Below, piece by piece: positions 1,821-41,301 of a stretch of DNA of 44,111 nt. The notes beneath the pieces are model-generated. The model ran no database searches. It worked only from the letters and a program-made list of their open reading frames with translations, and had not been told where the DNA came from. Each line of letters opens with the position of its first letter. The first letter of the stretch is position 1. A program made the position numbers and the translations under genes. The DNA comes from a phage. The DNA is taken from sequence record PZ379076.1; one strand, given 5' to 3'.

Positions 1821-1990
1821 TGTTCAGTGACATCAACGCAGCAATCGAAGAGGCAATCTGGCGACGCTACAACGGCGAGCAGCAACGGCACTTCTGCCTG
1901 GTGCAACGCGGCAACATGGTCGCCGTAGTGCAGGACCGCGATAACAAATATCCGAATGCGATGTGGACGACGAGGAATTTCTTAGGATGA
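1820..1990 (+). CDS. hypothetical protein
   Basis: ATG 1820 within track ORF 1805-1990 (which opens on GTG); coupled to neighbours. Confidence 0.5.
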   Translation: MFSDINAAIEEAIWRRYNGEQQRHFCLVQRGNMVAVVQDRDNKYPNAMWTTRNFLG

Positions 1991-2223
1991 TTACCAGCAT
2001 TCCTAACCTTATTAAAGAATTTGGCACGATGGCGGAGACGTGCCGACAAACAGGCCTCAACGAAATGACGATTGCGAAGTACAGCAAAGACGTGAAATGC
2101 GAGCGCCATGTAATTTATAATAACCGCCTTATGACGCACGTTAAGACAAGCCCGGTGTTATTCACGCGCCGTGGTATCACTAAAACAGAGCAACGCATTG
2201 CGCGAGAGGAGAGCGGGGAATGA
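1987..2223 (+). CDS. hypothetical protein
   Basis: ATG 1987 (ATGA overlap) inside track ORF 1963-2223. Confidence 0.5.
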   Translation: MITSIPNLIKEFGTMAETCRQTGLNEMTIAKYSKDVKCERHVIYNNRLMTHVKTSPVLFTRRGITKTEQRIAREESGE

Positions 2224-7046: not shown

Positions 7047-7507
7047 TGATGGGCTTTTTCAAAGTAACTGACGTACCGTCTCGTCGCGTAGTCCAGTACG
7101 CCCGCGTGTCTGGCTCTGGCGAGAACGTGGTATTTATTGAGGACGAAAGTGTACTCGGTACACCGGTAGATGATATGCCGTTTGCAGATAAAACCGGTAT
7201 TGCGTTGCCCGCCGCTGGTATGCTTTATGAAATTCCGTATCTGGCGGACGCTGGTGACGTGTATTTCTCTGTGCAACCGAAAGACACTGAACTTACAGAT
7301 GGCAGCGCAACTATCACTGTCGAAGTTAAGGCGGGTAAAGCACCGTATGCTCTGACCTGGTACAAAGACGGTAAGGAAGTGGTAAACGCCCCGGAAGAGG
7401 CCTTGTCTCTGACGGTTAATGCAGTTGGTGAATACTTCGTTAAAGTTACCGATGCCGGTGGCGTAGAGGCCGTCAGTAAAGCGGCGAAGGTCGCTAAACC
7501 AGAATGA
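7046..7507 (+). CDS. Ig-like domain protein (possible capsid decoration)
   Basis: 153 aa; ...ALTWYKDGKEV...VKVTDAGG segment resembles bacterial Ig-like domains. Confidence 0.55.
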   Translation: MMGFFKVTDVPSRRVVQYARVSGSGENVVFIEDESVLGTPVDDMPFADKTGIALPAAGMLYEIPYLADAGDVYFSVQPKDTELTDGSATITVEVKAGKAPYALTWYKDGKEVVNAPEEALSLTVNAVGEYFVKVTDAGGVEAVSKAAKVAKPE

Positions 7508-7510
7508 TAA

Positions 7511-7537
7511 AAGGCCCCATTAAGGGGCCTTAGTTTT
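7511..7537. terminator. bidirectional rho-independent terminator
   Basis: Stem aaggcccc (7511-7518) / ggggcctt (7524-7531); T-run follows on plus strand and A-run precedes it (T-run on minus). Confidence 0.75.
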
Positions 7538-7740
7538 CAACGGAATCTTGTGTTTAAATCCTGCTCGTGGACGACCCTCAGAACAGTGTCATAATCCCCG
7601 TATCTTCCAGGTTCAAATATATCTAATGCCCTGTAAGCAGACATTGCGTCAGGGAAAACCTGCAGAACCTTTTTAACACGGCACAAGTCACCGTCGAACT
7701 CTTCATCGAACTCTTGAACTACTTCGCAAATTGCATACAT
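7537..7740 (-). CDS. hypothetical protein (lone minus-strand gene in the head region)
   Basis: 67-aa ORF in track; AGGAGG SD 6 nt before ATG; own promoter upstream and terminator downstream. Confidence 0.6.
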   Translation of the reverse strand: MYAICEVVQEFDEEFDGDLCRVKKVLQVFPDAMSAYRALDIFEPGRYGDYDTVLRVVHEQDLNTRFR

Positions 7741-7767
7741 TTTTCACCTCCTGCTTAAGTTAACTGA

Positions 7768-7796
7768 ATAGTACCCTATTATATTGGGGTGTGCAA
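7768..7796 (-). promoter_or_regulatory. promoter, TTGCAC-N17-TACTAT family
   Basis: Minus strand reads TTGCAC (7796-7791), 17-nt spacer with AATAG-N4-CTATT palindrome, TACTAT (7773-7768). Confidence 0.5.
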
Positions 7797-7862
7797 ACTA
7801 TTTATTTAATTATTCCAGTTATTCCGCTCAATTGTAAATGTTGGAATAAACTATTCGAATAG

Positions 7863-7891
7863 TTGACTTTTCACTAAAAATATGATAAGCT
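7863..7891 (+). promoter_or_regulatory. promoter of conserved element copy 1
   Basis: TTGACT (7863-7868), 17-nt spacer, TAAGCT (7886-7891); same arrangement at 39678-39706. Confidence 0.45.
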
Positions 7892-8000
7892 CCACCTGAG
7901 CTTGTGAAGTATGAACAAGCGACCGCGGCGCGGGCAGGTAACGGAGCGGGACGTAAGTCCTGAGTGTAGTTACGCTGACGCGTTCGGAAGGGCCATACTC
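7886..8000 (+). repeat. conserved ~115-nt element, copy 1 (candidate structured RNA or leader)
   Basis: First 43 nt identical to 39701-39743, then matching with two offsetting 1-nt indels through ...TTCGGAAGGGCCATA(C/A)TCTATTG; GCTTGT/ACAAGC stem 7900-7920. Confidence 0.85.
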
Positions 8001-8070
8001 TATTGCTTGTGTAAAAAGTAACGGGTTTACTGAGATTACGCCGTTTCTATGTTTAAATGATAAGGACTAG

Positions 8071-8099
8071 CGCCCCGCTTTAAGGCGGGGCTTTACTTA
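8071..8099 (+). terminator. hairpin plus U-rich tract (terminator or attenuator) before Rz
   Basis: Stem gccccgc (8072-8078) / gcggggc (8085-8091), then TTTACTTA; Rz ATG at 8116. Confidence 0.4.
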
Positions 8100-8115
8100 T
8101 CGAGAAAGGAGAAAC

Positions 8116-8502
8116 ATGAATCTTAAAGCAACCGTCGTAGCAGGAGCATGTTTCATCATCCTGGCTTACACACACGGCATTTATCAGTACCGCAGCGGCT
8201 GGCACGAAGGCCGCGCTAATCTCGTTTCGCAGCAACAGCAAAAAGCACAGGCTGAGTTAGCTAAGAAAACACAACGGCAGCAGCAGGACGAATCTAAGGC
8301 CGCCGCCGCCGATTCCAAAGGCAAGACGAAATCAGAGGTGATTACCCGTGAAGTCGTTAAGTACATTAAAACGCCTGGTCGCAGCGGGTGCGCTTTTGAC
8401 CCTGAGCGCGTGCAGCTCAAGTCCCGCGCCGTCGCAAACGCTAATTCCATTACCGGATACGACGATGATGCAGCCTCCGTGCAAACTGGCAGCGCCAAGT
8501 AG
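8116..8502 (+). CDS. Rz-like inner-membrane spanin
   Basis: 128 aa; N-terminal hydrophobic helix, Q/K-rich coiled-coil-like middle, and an overlapping lipoprotein gene in another frame. Confidence 0.65.
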   Translation: MNLKATVVAGACFIILAYTHGIYQYRSGWHEGRANLVSQQQQKAQAELAKKTQRQQQDESKAAAADSKGKTKSEVITREVVKYIKTPGRSGCAFDPERVQLKSRAVANANSITGYDDDAASVQTGSAK

Positions 8503-8611
8503 CGATGCTGACGAGGATTTGGCTATAGACGTTCAGAACGCCGAATGCGTGCGGCAACTGCGTCTGAAAGTATTCCAGTTGCAGGATTATGTGAGGAATA
8601 TTCTGGAATAG
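8348..8611 (+). CDS. Rz1-like outer-membrane lipoprotein spanin
   Basis: GTG start with GAGGTGA SD; signal peptide with lipobox LSAC, proline-rich mature part; starts inside Rz in another frame and runs past its stop. Confidence 0.65.
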   Translation: MKSLSTLKRLVAAGALLTLSACSSSPAPSQTLIPLPDTTMMQPPCKLAAPSSDADEDLAIDVQNAECVRQLRLKVFQLQDYVRNILE

Positions 8612-8693
8612 TTGCCTTGCATGTTGGAATAATTTATTCTTGACATGTAAATCCGGGTGGCCCGGGTTCCAACGTCCAGGGGACATACTGACT

Positions 8694-9398
8694 ATGAATC
8701 GTTTTTTACGTTATCCGTTCCAGGAAGAAGCTGGGGCAGAAGATAAAGCTGGTGGCGGTGACGCTCCTAAAATGTTCACCGCTGAAGAAGTTCAGGCGCT
8801 GATTGAGAAAGAAGTTGCCGGGCTTAAGGCTAATCAGGAAGCATTGTTGGCGGAGAAGAAAGAAGCCGCTCGCAAAGCAAAAGAGGCCGAAGAAGAACGG
8901 CAGCGCGCGCACCAGGAGGCGTTAAAAGCCGCTGGTAAGATGGATGAGTTCGAAAAGACGATTCGTAGCCAGTATGACCCGGTGTTAGCCGAGAAAGACG
9001 GTCGCATCTCCAGAATGGCAGAGCGTATCCTCGGCAGCGAACGTAAAGCGGTGCTAGGCTCTTTCGCGGGTGACTTTATTACCCCAGAAGCAGTGGACAT
9101 TCTTGCGCCGTTCGTTAAGACTGAGTTCGAAGGCGATGATGTGGTTACTAAGTTTGTTGGCGCAGACGGCAACGTAATCACGACTGACCCGGAACAGTTC
9201 CGCAAATACTTGCGAGAACACAAAGCGTTTTCACATTTGATTAAAGCAAATGCAGCTTCCGGCGGCGGGGCTTCCGGTAGCAAAGGCGGCGGGGCCGCAC
9301 CAGCGTTTAAAGACATGAGTGAAGCGGAGCGTATCGCTCTGTACGAATCGAACCCTGCCGAATTTGAACGGCAACTTAAAGCCCTGAGGAAAAAATAA
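8694..9398 (+). CDS. scaffolding protein (putative)
   Basis: ATG 8694 inside track ORF 8640-9398; charged helical composition; immediately upstream of the capsid gene. Confidence 0.55.
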   Translation: MNRFLRYPFQEEAGAEDKAGGGDAPKMFTAEEVQALIEKEVAGLKANQEALLAEKKEAARKAKEAEEERQRAHQEALKAAGKMDEFEKTIRSQYDPVLAEKDGRISRMAERILGSERKAVLGSFAGDFITPEAVDILAPFVKTEFEGDDVVTKFVGADGNVITTDPEQFRKYLREHKAFSHLIKANAASGGGASGSKGGGAAPAFKDMSEAERIALYESNPAEFERQLKALRKK

Positions 9399-10447
9399 TG
9401 GCAATTACTACTATCGGCGACATCGTAACTGGTAAAGAATCGGTAATCCTGTCCTACATGACAGAGGACCCGGTAGAGAAAACCGCGTTCTTCCAGTCCG
9501 GTATCCTTACCTCGACTCCGTATGCCGCCGCTATCGCAAACGGCCCGTCCAACAAAGCGGTCCTGCCGTACTGGAAAGCTATTGATACCTCTATCGAGCC
9601 GAACTACTCGAACGACGTATATCAGGACGTCGCCACCCCGCGTAACGTGCAAACCGGTGAGATGGATGTTCGCGTAGCTTACCTGAACGAAGGTTTTGGT
9701 CAGGCTGACCTGACGGTAGAACTGACCAGCCAGAATCCGCTGCAATCCGTGGCTTCCCGTCTGGATAACTTCTGGCAGCGTCAGGCACAACGCCGTCTTA
9801 TTGCTACCGCGCTCGGTCTGTACAATGATAACGTAGCGGCTACCGATGCGTACCACGAGCAGAACGACATGGTTATTGACGTGTCCGCTACTCTGGGCTT
9901 CGACTCCGGCGCGTTCATCGATGCTACCCAGACTATGGGCGATGCGCTGATGGGTAACGGTGGTGAAGTGCTTGGCGCTATCGCGATGCACAGCTTCGTT
10001 TATGCGCAGGCGCGTAAGCAGCAGCTTATCGACTTCATTCGCGACGCGGACAACAACACCATGTTCGCCACCTACCAGGGCTATCGTGTGATTGTTGACG
10101 ACAGCATGACCGTAGTCGGAACTGGCAACAGCCGTAAGTTCATCTCCATCATCTTCGGCAACGGTGCTATCGGTTACGGCGAAGGTTCTCCGTCAAACCC
10201 GCTGGAATACGAGCGCGAAGCGTCTCGCGGTAACGGTGGTGGTGTCGAAACCCTGTGGACCCGTAAGACCTGGTTGCTGCATCCGTTTGGTTACAGTTTC
10301 ACCAGCACTGTAATCACCGGCAACGGCACCGAGACTATCGCCCGCTCTGCTTCCTGGCAGGACCTGGCGAACGCTTCCAACTGGAACCGTGTGGTTGACC
10401 GTAAGCATGTACCGATTGCCTTCCTGGTAACTGGTGTCGGGGCTTAA
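9398..10447 (+). CDS. major capsid protein (HK97-fold type, putative)
   Basis: 349 aa after scaffold gene, followed by a strong terminator; assignment from size and synteny. Confidence 0.7.
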   Translation: MAITTIGDIVTGKESVILSYMTEDPVEKTAFFQSGILTSTPYAAAIANGPSNKAVLPYWKAIDTSIEPNYSNDVYQDVATPRNVQTGEMDVRVAYLNEGFGQADLTVELTSQNPLQSVASRLDNFWQRQAQRRLIATALGLYNDNVAATDAYHEQNDMVIDVSATLGFDSGAFIDATQTMGDALMGNGGEVLGAIAMHSFVYAQARKQQLIDFIRDADNNTMFATYQGYRVIVDDSMTVVGTGNSRKFISIIFGNGAIGYGEGSPSNPLEYEREASRGNGGGVETLWTRKTWLLHPFGYSFTSTVITGNGTETIARSASWQDLANASNWNRVVDRKHVPIAFLVTGVGA

Positions 10448-10463
10448 GGTTAAGATATAATCG

Positions 10464-10491
10464 AGAGGGACTTCGGTCCCTCTTTTCATTT
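10464..10491 (+). terminator. rho-independent terminator after the capsid gene
   Basis: Stem agagggac (10464-10471) / gtccctct (10476-10483), loop ttcg, then TTTCATTT. Confidence 0.7.
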
Positions 10492-17279: not shown

Positions 17280-17321
17280 AACATAACTCCTGATTTGAGA
17301 TAACATCGTTGGTGTAAGTGA

Positions 17322-17350
17322 ATAGTACGCTATTATATCAGGGTGTGCAA
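17322..17350 (-). promoter_or_regulatory. promoter, TTGCAC-N17-TACTAT family (drives the minus-strand cassette)
   Basis: TTGCAC (17350-17345), 17-nt spacer with AATAG-N4-CTATT, TACTAT (17327-17322) on minus strand. Confidence 0.5.
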
Positions 17351-17457
17351 GTAGTATGTTAGAATAATTTTGCGCCTAGTGTCGCACACGAAAAGCGGGT
17401 GGTTCCCGTCTGGCGCATTTCCTTTAACCAGTAACCTCTTAACCAAAGGATTAAAGA

Positions 17458-29734: not shown

Positions 29735-30019
29735 CTAACTATAATAGTTCGCTATTAGGGTGTCAACCTGTTTGAACGAACCAACTACAAAAACATTTGC
29801 ACCACGCTTACGCATCCGCTCGTGCTCTCGTAACTGGTGCGGGTCAGGCTTCGTGCTTTCGTCTTTCTTCACCTCGACGAACCAGACGATGCCGCCAGGG
29901 AGAATTACCAGCAGGTCGGGAGCGCCGGAACGCCCCTCGTAGGAAAGTTTACGAACGAGGCCCCCAAGGGCCTCAAATCGCTCTTTTGCGTATTTCTGGA
30001 TGCGGCCCTCTTTAGTCAT
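29735..30019 (-). CDS. VRR-NUC-like PD-(D/E)xK nuclease
   Basis: ATG 30019 inside track ORF 29735-30199; ...GAPDLLVILPGGIVWFVEVKKDES...QLREHERM fits the D...E-V-K nuclease core. Confidence 0.55.
   Translation of the reverse strand: MTKEGRIQKYAKERFEALGGLVRKLSYEGRSGAPDLLVILPGGIVWFVEVKKDESTKPDPHQLREHERMRKRGANVFVVGSFKQVDTLIANYYS
29738..29766 (-). promoter_or_regulatory. strong sigma70-type promoter, TTGACA-N17-TATAGT family
   Basis: Minus strand TTGACA (29766-29761), 17-nt spacer with AATAG-N4-CTATT, TATAGT (29743-29738). Confidence 0.65.
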
Positions 30020-33293: not shown

Positions 33294-33322
33294 ACTATAA
33301 TAGCTAACTATTCAGGTGTCAA
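33294..33322 (-). promoter_or_regulatory. strong sigma70-type promoter, TTGACA-N17-TATAGT family
   Basis: Minus strand TTGACA (33322-33317), 17-nt spacer with AATAG-N4-CTATT, TATAGT (33299-33294). Confidence 0.65.
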
Positions 33323-36099: not shown

Positions 36100-36128
36100 A
36101 CTATAATAGCGAACTATTCACATGTCAA
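36100..36128 (-). promoter_or_regulatory. strong sigma70-type promoter, TTGACA-N17-TATAGT family
   Basis: Minus strand TTGACA (36128-36123), 17-nt spacer with AATAG-N4-CTATT, TATAGT (36105-36100). Confidence 0.65.
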
Positions 36129-36192
36129 TGGGCTTTTCTAAAATAATTAATATGGTACTATTCACATATCAACTGACTAAGGAGTAATTGAC

Positions 36193-36408
36193 ATGCAACC
36201 ATCTGAACTAGGTATCCGTGTAGAACAACGCCGTAAAGAACTCGGCATCTCCCAGCGCCGTTTGGCGGCCCTGACCGGCGTTTCCCAGGGCGCGATTAAC
36301 CAACTGGCACTTGGAGTAACTCAGGACGTCCGCCCGGCAACGCTGTTCAAACTGGCGGAAGTTCTGGAAGTAGACGCCAAGTGGCTGGCGTTAGGTGAAG
36401 GGGCTTAA
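36193..36408 (+). CDS. HTH transcriptional regulator (XRE / Cro-CI-like)
   Basis: 71 aa; ISQRRLAALTGVSQGAINQL is a helix-turn-helix signature; AAGGAG SD; only plus-strand gene in the minus-strand region. Confidence 0.7.
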   Translation: MQPSELGIRVEQRRKELGISQRRLAALTGVSQGAINQLALGVTQDVRPATLFKLAEVLEVDAKWLALGEGA

Positions 36409-39180: not shown

Positions 39181-39391
39181 ACTTAACGCCCGCAATCCAC
39201 GCACGCTCCGAAGCGTAGAAACGACACTTACTTAAAGCCTCGATTGGCATCTTAATAATGCGTGTCGGTTCCAACAAATGATTAGGCTTACATATTTCCG
39301 CATAGAATCCGCTGTCAGTAATTTCCGACGCAAACTTAAACCAGTATTTAACTTTACAGTTTTCAAAGTAACAACCCATACGCCCAATCAT
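39179..39391 (-). CDS. hypothetical protein
   Basis: 70-aa ORF in track, ATGA-coupled to the upstream HTH gene. Confidence 0.5.
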   Translation of the reverse strand: MIGRMGCYFENCKVKYWFKFASEITDSGFYAEICKPNHLLEPTRIIKMPIEALSKCRFYASERAWIAGVK

Positions 39392-39570
39392 TTCACGTTC
39401 TCCTTAATCCATGCTTCAACTTTATTACGGTCAAATGTTCCTGGTAAACGGCGACCCATAACCTTAATACAGCAATCAGGGAATTTACCGCTGCGCAACC
39501 AGTTATTAATTGTTTGACGTGTCACCCCGATACGTTCAGCCACTTCATTCTGTGTCATGTAATGCTGCAT
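39388..39570 (-). CDS. AlpA / excisionase-like HTH DNA-binding protein
   Basis: ATG 39570 with AGGAGA SD inside track ORF 39388-39642; MTQNEVAERIGVTRQTINNWLRSGKFP ... VEAWI matches the AlpA-type pattern. Confidence 0.6.
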   Translation of the reverse strand: MQHYMTQNEVAERIGVTRQTINNWLRSGKFPDCCIKVMGRRLPGTFDRNKVEAWIKENVK

Positions 39571-39677
39571 TTTTATATCTCCTGTTTGTTTGGTGAAAAC
39601 GAGTATAGGATAGCGTGAATGTAAAAGCAACCAAAACACCACACAAAGTTACTAATATACAAAAGATGCTAATGGTA

Positions 39678-39706
39678 TTGACTTTTACTAAGAAATGTGC
39701 TAAGCT
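39678..39706 (+). promoter_or_regulatory. promoter of conserved element copy 2
   Basis: TTGACT (39678-39683), 17-nt spacer, TAAGCT (39701-39706). Confidence 0.45.
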
Positions 39707-39815
39707 CCACCTGAGCTTGTGAAGTATGAACAAGCGACCGCGGTGCGGCAGGAAACGGAGCGGTGCGTCAGCACTGAGTGTAGTGTCGCTGCCTGCATTC
39801 GGAAGGGCCATAATC
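39701..39815 (+). repeat. conserved ~115-nt element, copy 2
   Basis: Matches 7886-8000; stem-loop GGUGC-gtca-GCACU at 39762-39775 replaces GGGAC-gtaa-GUCCU of copy 1. Confidence 0.85.
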
Positions 39816-39907
39816 TATTGTAAATCCCGTCTAAATAACCCAAGTCACTAATAATTAAAAGTTTCTATAGTTGCCGTAAGCAAGGTAGAGAGTACTTCAC
39901 TCCGCTG

Positions 39908-39986: not shown

Positions 39987-40015
39987 TTGCACACCCCAAC
40001 ATAATAGGATACTAT
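39987..40015 (+). promoter_or_regulatory. promoter, TTGCAC-N17-TACTAT family
   Basis: TTGCAC (39987-39992), 17-nt spacer with AATAG-N4-CTATT, TACTAT (40010-40015); acgagacagaggag leader before ATG. Confidence 0.5.
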
Positions 40016-40043
40016 TCACTTATCGGAACGAGACAGAGGAGTG

Positions 40044-41242: not shown

Positions 41243-41271
41243 TTGCACACTAAGATAGAATAGGCTACTAT
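41243..41271 (+). promoter_or_regulatory. promoter, TTGCAC-N17-TACTAT family
   Basis: TTGCAC (41243-41248), 17-nt spacer with AATAG-N4-CTATT, TACTAT (41266-41271); aaacgagaggagaga leader. Confidence 0.5.
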
Positions 41272-41301
41272 TCATTTACACAAACGAGAGGAGAGACAGA
41301 G

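What the first reader, a model, noticed from the sequence alone, without database searches (positions are those of the whole stretch)
8595..8645. Cluster of GGAATA half-sites and palindromes upstream of the scaffold/capsid genes and of the copy-1 promoter
GAATATTC (8596-8603), GGAATAG (8605-8611) and the palindrome GAATAAtTTATTC (8627-8639) precede a TTGACA (8640-8645) that has no matching -10, ~50 nt before the scaffold start. A similar ATGTTGGAATAA...CTATTCGAATAG block (7838-7862) precedes the copy-1 promoter. Possible binding sites for a late-gene activator, since the structural operon lacks a canonical promoter here.
Basis: seen in the sequence. Interest (0 to 1): 0.35.

Follow-up and report, generated by a model that had tools for sequence, protein, structure and literature searches.

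The report
Scaffold-capsid promoter with conserved GGAATA repeats

Summary
The window is a Kagunavirus-like (Guernseyvirinae) siphophage. The clustering is not chance: 7 of the 25 GGAATA copies lie in two short clusters, and the exact palindrome GAATA-N3-TATTC occurs twice against 0.02 expected.

A sigma-70-type promoter does exist here: TTGCCT (8612-8617), 17 bp, TATTCT (8635-8640). Its key bases (TTG, TAT..T) are invariant in 15 aligned sequences from five lineages, and equivalent TTGCnn-17-TAnnnT promoters precede the scaffold gene in more distant relatives. TTGACA (8640-8645) is therefore the -7..-2 region, not an orphan -35. The predicted start is about 8647, followed by two covarying leader hairpins.

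The GGAATA repeats sit at about -52, -42 and -21. They are accessory:
- They are 100% conserved in Kaguna- and Jerseyvirus, and two of three in Cornellvirus, while the 5' half of the spacer between them has diverged.
- They are absent from the Pantoea, Serratia and Klebsiella relatives, which keep the core promoter.
- They are absent from the tail-gene promoter.

They are most likely operator half-sites for an unknown DNA-binding protein. The direction of regulation is undetermined. This is a well-supported but ordinary regulatory region.

The parts
8595..8600 (+). Distal GGAATA repeat, about -52..-47. It lies inside the last codons of o-spanin (AGG AAT ATT CTG GAA TAG).
   Evidence: Invariant at all codon positions in Kaguna- and Jerseyvirus while upstream codons vary. 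Absent in Cornellvirus.
8605..8611 (+). GGAATAG repeat abutting the -35 (-42..-36). It includes the o-spanin stop codon.
   Evidence: Invariant in about 57 scaffold-context contigs. Conserved in Cornellvirus, where the block is not next to o-spanin but in a divergent intergenic region, so coding constraint alone does not explain it.
8612..8617 (+). -35 hexamer TTGCCT of the scaffold-capsid promoter
   Evidence: TTG is invariant in 15 sequences from five lineages. Equivalents elsewhere: TTGCAT (L030/AH01), TTGCCC (Tsm2), TTGTTA (L031/VLCpiS11a), TTGCGC, TTGCAA and TTGCTT in farther relatives.
8618..8624 (+). 5' half of the spacer, free to vary
   Evidence: Between-genus identity 0.17-0.32. Variants seen: GCATGT, GTATGT, AGTAAG, CTGATG, CTCCTG.
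8625..8633 (+). TGGAATAAT: the third GGAATA repeat (-21..-16), which also reads as an extended -10 (TGnAATAAT)
   Evidence: Between-genus identity 0.97-1.00. Only two variants in about 57 contigs: CGGAATAAT and TGTAATAAT. The same 9-mer is the -10 of the minus-strand promoter-like site 7838..7809.
8627..8639 (.). 13-bp palindrome GAATA-ATT-TATTC (-20..-8), overlapping the -10
   Evidence: An exact copy of the pattern lies in region A (7844-7856), with a different central triplet in the window (AAC) and in Jersey (CTT).
8635..8640 (+). -10 hexamer TATTCT, 17 bp from the -35
   Evidence: TAT and the final T are invariant in all 15 sequences. The same hexamer, with an upstream TGt, is the -10 of the tail-gene promoter in Jersey.
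8640..8645 (+). TTGACA: -7..-2 of the promoter, not a -35
   Evidence: No -10 lies downstream. It reads TTGTTA in Jerseyvirus.
8646..8648 (+). Predicted transcription start (inferred, not mapped)
   Evidence: It lies 6-8 nt after the -10, leaving 2-4 unpaired nt before the leader hairpin in all three genera.
8650..8668 (+). Leader hairpin 1: AAUCCGGG-UGG-CCCGGGUU
   Evidence: 92.9% of cells are paired, 7 of 7 pairs carry double changes, and 0 of 500 shuffles reach this. Present 28-37 nt before the scaffold ATG even where the scaffold protein is only about 28% identical.
8674..8684 (+). Leader hairpin 2: GUCC-AGG-GGAC, carrying the Shine-Dalgarno G-run
   Evidence: Compensatory form GACC..GGUC in L031/VLCpiS11a, and analogous SD hairpins in L035-L047 (read).
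8694..10447 (+). Scaffold (8694-9398) and major capsid (9398-10447) genes, the unit driven by this promoter
10463..10484 (+). Intrinsic terminator that closes the scaffold-capsid unit
7811..7825 (-). Region A: two GGAATA repeats on the minus strand (GGAATAACTGGAATA), 9 bp apart
   Evidence: Conserved in Kaguna- and Jerseyvirus, including genomes that have no minus-strand gene here.
7843..7863 (+). Region A: GGAATA, palindrome GAATA-AAC-TATTC (7844-7856) and palindrome ACTATTCGAATAGT (7850-7863), at about -55..-35 of the 'copy-1' promoter
   Evidence: Jersey has GGAATA-C-TTTATTC at the same distance (20 bp) from TTGACT.
7863..7891 (+). 'Copy-1' promoter: TTGACT, 17 bp, TGa-TAAGCT

Best explanation
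Positions 8595-8645 are the upstream, core and start region of the host-RNA-polymerase (sigma-70-type) promoter of the scaffold and major-capsid transcription unit.

Core promoter and leader:
- The -35 is TTGCCT (8612-8617) and the -10 is TATTCT (8635-8640), 17 bp apart.
- Transcription is predicted to start near 8647.
- The mRNA opens with a GC hairpin 2-4 nt from its 5' end, which probably acts as a stabiliser or processing element (function inferred).
- A second small hairpin presents the ribosome-binding G-run.
- The unit ends at the terminator at 10463-10484.

Accessory elements:
- In the Escherichia/Salmonella-infecting clade only, three in-phase GGAATA repeats are superimposed on this core, starting at 8595, 8605 and 8626 (spacings 10 and 21 bp).
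- The last repeat forms the palindrome GAATA-N3-TATTC together with the -10.
- A second array of the same half-sites and the same palindrome lies 780 bp upstream, in front of the 'copy-1' RNA promoter.

I interpret these as operator half-sites for one sequence-specific, probably dimeric and probably phage-encoded DNA-binding protein. That protein would tune this promoter and the upstream one together.

What is shown and what is inferred:
- Shown: conservation of the promoter hexamers, the conservation pattern of the repeats, and the hairpin covariation.
- Inferred: the start site, protein binding, and the identity and sign of the regulator. Sites at -52 and -42 fit activation, while the site over -20..-8 fits repression or timing.
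For: Promoter:
- TTG (8612-8614), TAT (8635-8637) and T8640 are invariant in 15 sequences from five lineages.
- Analogous TTGCnn-17-TAnnnT promoters stand before the scaffold gene in L030/AH01, Tsm2, L031/VLCpiS11a, L033/34, L035 and L037/38.
- A terminator follows directly after the capsid gene.

Accessory repeats:
- Clustering is well beyond chance.
- Identity between Kaguna- and Jerseyvirus is 1.00 in the repeat blocks against 0.17 in the spacer half between them. This argues for selection rather than recent transfer.
- The repeats are essentially invariant in about 57 contigs retrieved with the spacer left free.
- GGAATAG is kept in Cornellvirus outside any coding context.
- The palindrome half-sites are kept in region A while the central triplet differs between genera.
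- Region A is conserved even where no minus-strand gene follows it. That is hard to explain if it were only a promoter.

Leader hairpin: covariation is shown.
Against: - No transcript-start or protein-binding data exist for any Guernseyvirinae phage. Literature searches found only a time-course RNA-seq study without start sites.
- The core promoter matches only 8 of 12 consensus positions, so the call rests on conservation and not on score.
- TGGAATAAT is itself a good extended -10. The two natural variants (CGGAATAAT and TGTAATAAT) do not separate the 'operator' reading from the 'second -10' reading.
- No binder has been identified.
- The clade-level distribution amounts to a single evolutionary event.
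- The 8595-8611 repeats overlap o-spanin codons in two of the three genera.
Confidence: 0.55

Rival explanations
1. The structural operon has no usable promoter, TTGACA is an orphan -35, and the GGAATA sites recruit a dedicated late-gene activator that switches on late transcription in general.
For: - The core hexamers are weak (8/12) and were not flagged by the scan.
- Repeats at -52 and -42, on one face of the helix, are in classical activator positions.
- The scaffold and capsid proteins need very high expression.
Against: - A conserved -35/-10 pair exists, and TTGACA lies at -7..-2.
- GGAATA is missing from the tail-operon promoter in all three genera and from every other intergenic region.
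- Sister phages use the same core promoter without the repeats.
- One site overlaps the -10.
Confidence: 0.15
2. No regulator is involved and the repeats are promoter elements in their own right. TGGAATAAT would be an extended -10 giving a second, overlapping start about 7 bp upstream. The upstream repeats would act as UP-like or spacer-shape elements that raise promoter strength in Escherichia and Salmonella hosts.
For: - TGGAATAAT matches TGnTATAAT at 8 of 9 positions.
- It is also the -10 of the promoter-like site TTTACA-18-AATAAT on the minus strand in region A.
- The tail promoter uses an analogous TGtTAGAAT / TGtTATTCT element.
Against: - The -52 and -42 repeats do not resemble UP elements.
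- The region-A array is conserved in genomes where the minus-strand 'promoter' faces only a terminator.
- The palindrome recurs at a place in region A that has no -10 role, with a variable centre.
- Variant CGGAATAAT loses the TG but keeps GGAATA.
Confidence: 0.2
3. The repeats bind a host transcription factor found in Escherichia and Salmonella, for example a protein with a hexamer-repeat operator like that of NanR, which would link capsid synthesis to host physiology.
For: - The repeats occur only in the Escherichia/Salmonella-infecting clade and not in the Pantoea, Serratia or Klebsiella relatives.
- GGAATAACTGGAATAA resembles, from memory only, the NanR operator GGTATAACAGGTATAA.
Against: - Every copy reads GGAATA and none reads GGTATA.
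- Other host motifs I compared by eye do not fit. The ArgR box needs GAAT-N4-ATTC and here it is N5. The Fis and NinH sites are G-N13-C and here it is G-N11-C. The ECF -35 GGAAT has no matching -10.
- A literature search for GGAATA operators found nothing relevant.
Confidence: 0.1
4. The conservation is a by-product of o-spanin coding constraint plus shared ancestry or recent recombination of a module-junction block, with no regulatory role for GGAATA.
For: - Positions 8595-8611 encode the last five o-spanin codons and the stop.
- K1H-type phages recombine exactly at the scaffold ATG.
- One contig (L127) mixes a Jersey-type spacer with Kaguna-type flanks.
Against: - Wobble positions in these five codons are invariant while upstream codons vary.
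- GGAATAG and TGGAATAAT persist in Cornellvirus in a non-coding context.
- The 7-nt spacer segment in the middle of the block has fully diverged (0.17 identity), which a recently transferred block would not show.
Confidence: 0.05

Closest known systems
Sigma-70-dependent phage promoters with overlapping operator sites (for example lambda PR/PRM with OR1-3, or phi29 A2c/A2b/A3 with p4 sites); comparison from general knowledge
   Same: A host-type -35/-10 pair with 17-bp spacing. Short repeated or palindromic sites abut the -35 and overlap the spacer and -10. A second site cluster lies some distance away.
   Different: The binding protein is unknown. The half-site GGAATA matches no operator I could identify. 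The sites are a clade-specific addition to a promoter that other lineages run without them.
Extended -10 (TGnTATAAT) promoters
   Same: TGGAATAAT fits 8 of 9 positions. Other promoters in this genome clearly use TGn extended -10 elements (TGaTAAGCT, TGtTAGAAT, TGgTACTAT).
   Different: The ancestral promoter conserved across lineages is the TTGCCT-17-TATTCT pair, 7 bp downstream. The TG is lost in one natural variant that keeps GGAATA.
5'-terminal stabilising stem-loops of bacterial and phage mRNAs (ompA-type); from memory
   Same: A GC-rich hairpin lies 2-4 nt from the predicted 5' end of a very highly expressed mRNA and is supported by covariation.
   Different: In distant relatives the hairpin follows an upstream stop codon with no promoter. 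It is therefore tied to the scaffold gene, possibly for processing or autoregulation, rather than to a primary 5' end.
NanR operator (GGTATA repeats); from memory
   Same: Hexamer repeats at 9-10 bp intervals with very similar sequence (GGAATAAC.GGAATAA against GGTATAAC.GGTATAA).
   Different: The third base is A in all seven copies, never T. No evidence links these phages to NanR.

Membership tests
Sigma-70-type promoter | A -35-like and a -10-like hexamer with A at -11 and T at -7, spaced 16-18 bp | tested here: met
   TTGCCT (4/6), 17 bp, TATTCT (4/6, with A2 and T6 present), read. The total of 8/12 is below the scanner's 9/12 threshold.
Sigma-70-type promoter | Key hexamer positions conserved across relatives while the spacer varies | tested here: met
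   TTG and TAT..T are invariant in 15 sequences. Identity in the 5' spacer half is 0.17-0.32. Equivalent promoters occur in six further lineages.
Sigma-70-type promoter | A mapped transcription start 6-8 nt after the -10 | not testable with these tools
   No start-site data were found for this subfamily.
Activator-dependent late promoter (class I/II type) | Activator site centred near -41.5 or -61.5, with a defective -35 | tested here: inconclusive
   The repeats lie at -52..-47 and -42..-37, and the -35 is imperfect but conserved. A further site lies at -21..-8, which is atypical for an activator.
Activator-dependent late promoter (class I/II type) | The same site present at the other late promoters of the genome | tested here: not met
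   GGAATA clusters occur only at regions A and B. The tail promoter lacks them in all three genera.
P2 Ogr / Mu C / T4 gp55 late promoters | TGT-N12-ACA near -55 (Ogr), or TATAAATA at -10 (T4) | tested here: not met
   Direct reading of 8560-8650. The only TGT...ACA pair is 17 nt apart, and there is no TATAAATA.
Palindromic operator of a dimeric DNA-binding protein | Inverted half-sites at fixed spacing, recurring at more than one site, with half-sites conserved and the centre free | tested here: met
   GAATA-N3-TATTC occurs twice in the window and twice in Jersey, against 0.02-0.04 expected. The centres are AAC, CTT and ATT.
Palindromic operator of a dimeric DNA-binding protein | Demonstrated binding by a protein | not testable with these tools
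   There are only phyletic leads: a NinH-like protein (1963-2223) and an HTH_17 protein (39388-39642).
Fis / lambda NinH binding site | A G and a C separated by 13 bp (G-N13-C) | tested here: not met
   The palindrome is G-N11-C (8627-8639 and 7844-7856). The motif definition comes from PMC7166090.
NanR operator | GGTATA hexamer repeats | tested here: not met
   All copies read GGAATA. The NanR motif is recalled from memory.
ECF-sigma promoter | A GGAA(C/T) -35 followed by GTT or TCAAA about 16-18 bp downstream | tested here: not met
   No such -10 follows any GGAATA copy at the right distance (direct reading). The idea was prompted.

The most novel reading that the evidence does not exclude
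The GGAATA / GAATA-N3-TATTC arrays at 7811-7863 and 8595-8639 could be the operators of the phage's own NinH-like (Fis-like) protein, encoded at 1963-2223. That gene is the only one in my comparison present in exactly the lineages that carry the repeats. Binding would wrap or bend the scaffold-capsid promoter and the upstream RNA promoter to set late-gene timing. This would give the widespread but functionless NinH family its first regulatory role and would define the late switch of Guernseyvirinae.
Probability: 0.08. Interest if true: 0.6.

Novelty: new member of a known kind. Interest (0 to 1): 0.3.

Why it matters
Guernseyvirinae (Jersey- and Kaguna-type phages) are widely isolated for Salmonella and E. 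coli biocontrol. Their transcription programme is nonetheless uncharted: I found no mapped promoter or late regulator.

This analysis pins down the likely promoter and leader of the most highly expressed structural genes. It also defines a short, testable cis-element (GGAATA; GAATA-N3-TATTC) that separates the Escherichia/Salmonella clade from its relatives.

The region is useful for annotation, for engineering expression cassettes into these phages, and as bait to find the regulator. In kind it is an ordinary promoter-plus-operator arrangement.

Tried and rejected
- **A shared late-promoter signature.** I considered ATGTT(G/A)GAATAA, shared by sites 7838, 8621 and 17356, as such a signature. 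I rejected it because in Jersey the 17356 homologue reads TGtTATTCT. The similarity there is just that promoter's -10.
- **TTGACA as a -35.** Rejected because there is no -10 downstream, it is not conserved in Jersey, and it lies inside the conserved promoter's -7..-2.
- **Sigma-54.** GG and GC are 13 or 8 bp apart, not 11 (direct reading).
- **Other known motifs.** The ArgR box, Fis/NinH site, NanR operator, ECF -35, Ogr site, T4 late promoter and lambda CII TTGC-N6-TTGC all fail on spacing or sequence.
- **Link to the early-promoter palindrome.** The genome's early promoters carry AATAG-N4-CTATT (12 hits against 1.1 expected). GAATAGT occurs 10 times, all in promoter regions. The scaffold site shares GAATAGT but lacks the second half-site, so I treat it as separate.
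- **Rfam.** Nothing was found in 7780-8720, even at E up to 1.
- **Literature.** No start-site data or GGAATA-binding factor were found.
- **Phylogenetic profiling for a binder.** This gave one perfect-pattern gene, the NinH-like one. It reflects one clade-level event, and the lambda NinH motif spacing does not fit.
- **Separating 'operator' from 'extended -10'.** A free-spacer scan of IMG/VR gave one natural variant favouring each reading, so it was inconclusive.

Full report
**Context.** The window is a Guernseyvirinae siphophage of the Kagunavirus type. Region 7500-9400 is 97.6% identical to Escherichia phage vB_EcoS-phiEc3, and 8560-8900 is 99.4% identical to Bas72.

The local gene order is as follows:
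- head genes up to 7507, then a terminator at 7511-7531;
- a small minus-strand gene at 7537-7740;
- a divergent intergenic region, here called region A;
- a TTGACT-17-TGaTAAGCT promoter at 7863-7891 that drives a roughly 200-nt non-coding-looking 'copy-1' element ending at terminator 8072-8091;
- the i-spanin and o-spanin genes (8116-8611);
- an 82-nt intergenic region, here called region B;
- scaffold (8694-9398), major capsid (9398-10447), and a terminator at 10463-10484.

**Observation.**
- GGAATA is not enriched genome-wide (25 copies against 19.5 expected).
- Seven of the 25 copies fall in two clusters, 7811-7848 and 8571-8631. Under random placement the chance of such clusters is about 1e-4 and 6e-3 respectively.
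- Tandem GGAATA-N3-5-GGAATA occurs twice against 0.00 expected.
- The exact palindrome GAATA-N3-TATTC occurs twice, once in A and once in B, against 0.02 expected.
- TTGACA (8640-8645) has no -10 downstream.

**What the core element is.** I collected the region upstream of the scaffold gene from several sources:
- 42 IMG/VR loci;
- phages Jersey and Shemara;
- Pantoea phage AH01, Serratia phage Tsm2, Klebsiella phage VLCpiS11a and phage K1H.

I aligned 15 sequences from Kaguna-, Jersey- and Cornellvirus and two further lineages. The invariant columns upstream of the leader are TTG at 8612-8614, TAT at 8635-8637 and T8640. These are the diagnostic bases of a sigma-70 -35 (TTGCCT) and -10 (TATTCT) with a 17-bp spacer.

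Other lineages show the same design before the scaffold gene:

| Lineage | Promoter |
|---|---|
| L030 / AH01 | TTGCAT-17-TATTCT |
| Tsm2 | TTGCCC-17-TATATT |
| L031 / VLCpiS11a | TTGTTA-17-TATATT |
| L033 / L034 | TTGCGC-17-TAACAT |
| L035 | TTGCAA-17-TAACAT |
| L037 / L038 | TTGCTT-17-TACAAT |

The cross-lineage conservation is what supports it.

TTGACA therefore sits at -7..-2 and is not an orphan -35. In Jersey it reads TTGTTA. With the terminator directly after the capsid gene, this defines a compact unit for the most abundant virion proteins: promoter, scaffold, capsid, terminator.

**Leader.**
- Hairpin 1 (8650-8668, AAUCCGGG-UGG-CCCGGGUU) begins 2-4 nt after the predicted start at about 8647.
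- The same triloop hairpin (YGG, AGG or AGA loop) sits 28-37 nt before the scaffold ATG in nearly all relatives. That includes relatives whose scaffold protein is only about 28% identical.
- Its stems differ by compensatory changes: 92.9% of cells are paired, 7 of 7 pairs carry double changes, and 0 of 500 shuffles reach this. The segments were chosen by a hairpin search, which biases the percentage paired but not the covariation.
- In L040-L047 the hairpin follows an upstream stop codon with no promoter. It therefore belongs to the scaffold gene and not to the promoter.
- A second small hairpin, GUCC-AGG-GGAC (8674-8684), holds the Shine-Dalgarno G-run. It has compensatory or analogous forms in the other lineages.

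**The GGAATA repeats.** Relative to a start at 8647, the repeats lie at -52..-47, -42..-37 and -21..-16. Their starts are 10 and 21 bp apart, so they lie on one face of the helix. The last repeat, together with the -10, forms the palindrome GAATA-ATT-TATTC at -20..-8.

Between-genus identity by segment:

| Segment | Kaguna-Jersey | Kaguna-Cornell | Jersey-Cornell |
|---|---|---|---|
| o-spanin coding, 8542-8594 | 0.75 | 0.31 | 0.34 |
| Two upstream repeats, 8595-8611 | 1.00 | 0.53 | 0.53 |
| -35, 8612-8617 | 1.00 | 1.00 | 1.00 |
| 5' spacer half, 8618-8624 | 0.17 | 0.21 | 0.32 |
| 3' spacer half, 8625-8634 | 1.00 | 0.97 | 0.97 |
| -10, 8635-8640 | 1.00 | 1.00 | 1.00 |

- A scan of IMG/VR that fixed only the two hexamers and left the spacer free returned about 57 scaffold-context contigs. 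All carry GGAATAG before the -35 and all but one keep GGAATA in the spacer; the only two variants in the TGGAATAAT 9-mer are CGGAATAAT and TGTAATAAT.
- In Cornellvirus the promoter lies in a divergent intergenic region next to a minus-strand gene, not after o-spanin. GGAATAG and TGGAATAATTTATTC are still kept there.
- Coding constraint therefore cannot be the whole explanation. The fully diverged 7-nt segment in the middle of the block also argues against recent horizontal transfer.

The repeats are dispensable for the core promoter. AH01/L030, Tsm2, VLCpiS11a/L031 and the more distant relatives have no GGAATA cluster and no GAATA-N3-TATTC anywhere in their genomes.

They are also not a general late signal.
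- In the window they occur only in regions A and B.
- The tail-operon promoter at about 17356-17368 superficially shares ATGTTAGAATAA. That string is simply its extended -10: TGtTAGAAT here, TGtTATTCT in Jersey and TAGAAT in Shemara.

**Region A.** The block TTATTCCAGTTATTCC - about 17 nt - GGAATA-N3-TATTC - TTGACT is conserved throughout Kaguna- and Jerseyvirus.
- It is conserved even in genomes where it directly follows the terminator and no minus-strand gene is present.
- GGAATA keeps a fixed 20-bp distance to the -35 of the copy-1 promoter in both genera.
- The palindrome's half-sites are kept while its centre differs: AAC in the window and CTT in Jersey.
- Conserved half-sites with a free centre and recurrence at two loci are what an operator of a dimeric DNA-binding protein looks like.
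- This pattern is difficult to explain by promoter function alone.

Cornellvirus lacks region A.

**Mechanism, committed.** This is a sigma-70 promoter for the scaffold-capsid unit. Clade-specific operator half-sites are overlaid on it, and they bind an unidentified protein, probably phage-encoded. That protein co-regulates this promoter and the upstream RNA/spanin promoter.

The sign of regulation is open:
- the palindrome over -20..-8 fits repression or timing.

The main rival is that TGGAATAAT is simply an extended -10, giving a second start about 7 bp upstream. The same 9-mer serves as the -10 of the minus-strand promoter-like site at 7838..7809. The natural variants do not discriminate between the two readings.

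**Candidate binders (leads only).** Pfam finds three candidate DNA-binding proteins:
- a Cro/CI-type HTH protein (36193-36408);
- an HTH_17 excisionase-like protein (39388-39642, more likely starting at about 39572);
- a weak NinH-like protein (1963-2223; E = 4e-4, below Pfam's cutoff).

I compared all window proteins with Jersey and Shemara (which carry the repeats) and with AH01, Tsm2 and VLCpiS11a (which do not). The NinH-like gene is the only one with a perfect matching pattern. It occurs in about 470 Salmonella and Escherichia records of this group.

Two points weaken this lead. The pattern reflects a single clade-level event. Also, lambda NinH prefers G-N13-C (PMC7166090), whereas the palindrome here is G-N11-C. 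The HTH_17 protein is found only in Kaguna- and Jerseyvirus, the same distribution as region A and the distal repeat.

**Comparison with known systems.** The arrangement works like a classical phage promoter with overlapping operators. It fails the sequence or spacing tests for the Ogr, T4-late, CII, ArgR, Fis/NinH, NanR, sigma-54 and ECF motifs. These were direct readings, and several of the reference motifs were recalled from memory. Nothing in Rfam matches the region.

**Verdict.** The feature is a real, conserved regulatory region of an ordinary kind. Its new content is the annotation of the promoter and leader and a defined, testable clade-specific cis-element whose binder is unknown.

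Noticed in passing
window 8650-8668 and 8674-8684; also L033, L034, L035, L040-L047: Two small hairpins precede the scaffold gene in very distant relatives (scaffold protein about 28% identical). One is a GC-rich triloop hairpin 28-37 nt before the ATG, with full compensatory changes. The other holds the Shine-Dalgarno G-run. In L040-L047 they follow an upstream stop codon with no promoter. They may be an mRNA stabiliser, a processing site, or a target of scaffold autoregulation.
   Followed up: partly
window 7863-8005 and 39678-39820; Jersey L004 about 7275-7400: There are two copies of a roughly 145-nt element, each with its own TTGACT-17-TGnTAAGCT promoter. The copies differ by -1 and +1 indels that break the small ORF in the middle but keep stem-like compensatory changes (GGAC..GUCC against GUGC..GCAC). 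This points to a non-coding RNA rather than the 36-41-aa ORFs annotated in relatives. There is no Rfam match.
   Followed up: partly
window 7767-7780, 17321-17334, 29743-29756, 33299-33312, 36105-36118, 36149-36162, 40003-40016, 41259-41272: A family of strongly similar early-type promoters (TTGACA or TTGCAC, 17 bp, TATAGT or TACTAT) carries the palindrome AATAG-N4-CTATT (12 hits against 1.1 expected). All 10 copies of GAATAGT in the genome lie in promoter regions. This is probably the operator of another regulator, for example the Cro/CI-type HTH protein at 36193-36408, whose own divergent promoters carry two copies.
   Followed up: partly
window 17369-17433: Rfam int-alpA RNA matches just above its gathering score (36.6 against 35.8 bits). 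The match lies in the 5' leader of the tail-assembly-chaperone and tape-measure operon, directly after its extended -10 promoter. The sequence is conserved in Jersey and Shemara.
   Followed up: no
window 7537-7740 (minus strand): A 67-aa gene with its own early-type promoter (7796..7761) is present in only some Kagunaviruses. It is absent from Jersey-type genomes at this place, and its homologue in Shemara sits after the endolysin gene. It looks like a mobile small gene (a moron).
   Followed up: no
L050 (phage K1H) 1577-2254, compared with window 8694 onward: K1H-type phages keep the whole promoter and leader block but switch to a different scaffold gene exactly at the ATG. The leader and start codon therefore form a recombination junction between modules.
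   Followed up: no
window 1963-2223: A NinH-like (Fis-like) small protein gene lies just upstream of the small terminase gene. Among the six genomes compared, it is present only in those that carry the GGAATA repeats.
   Followed up: partly
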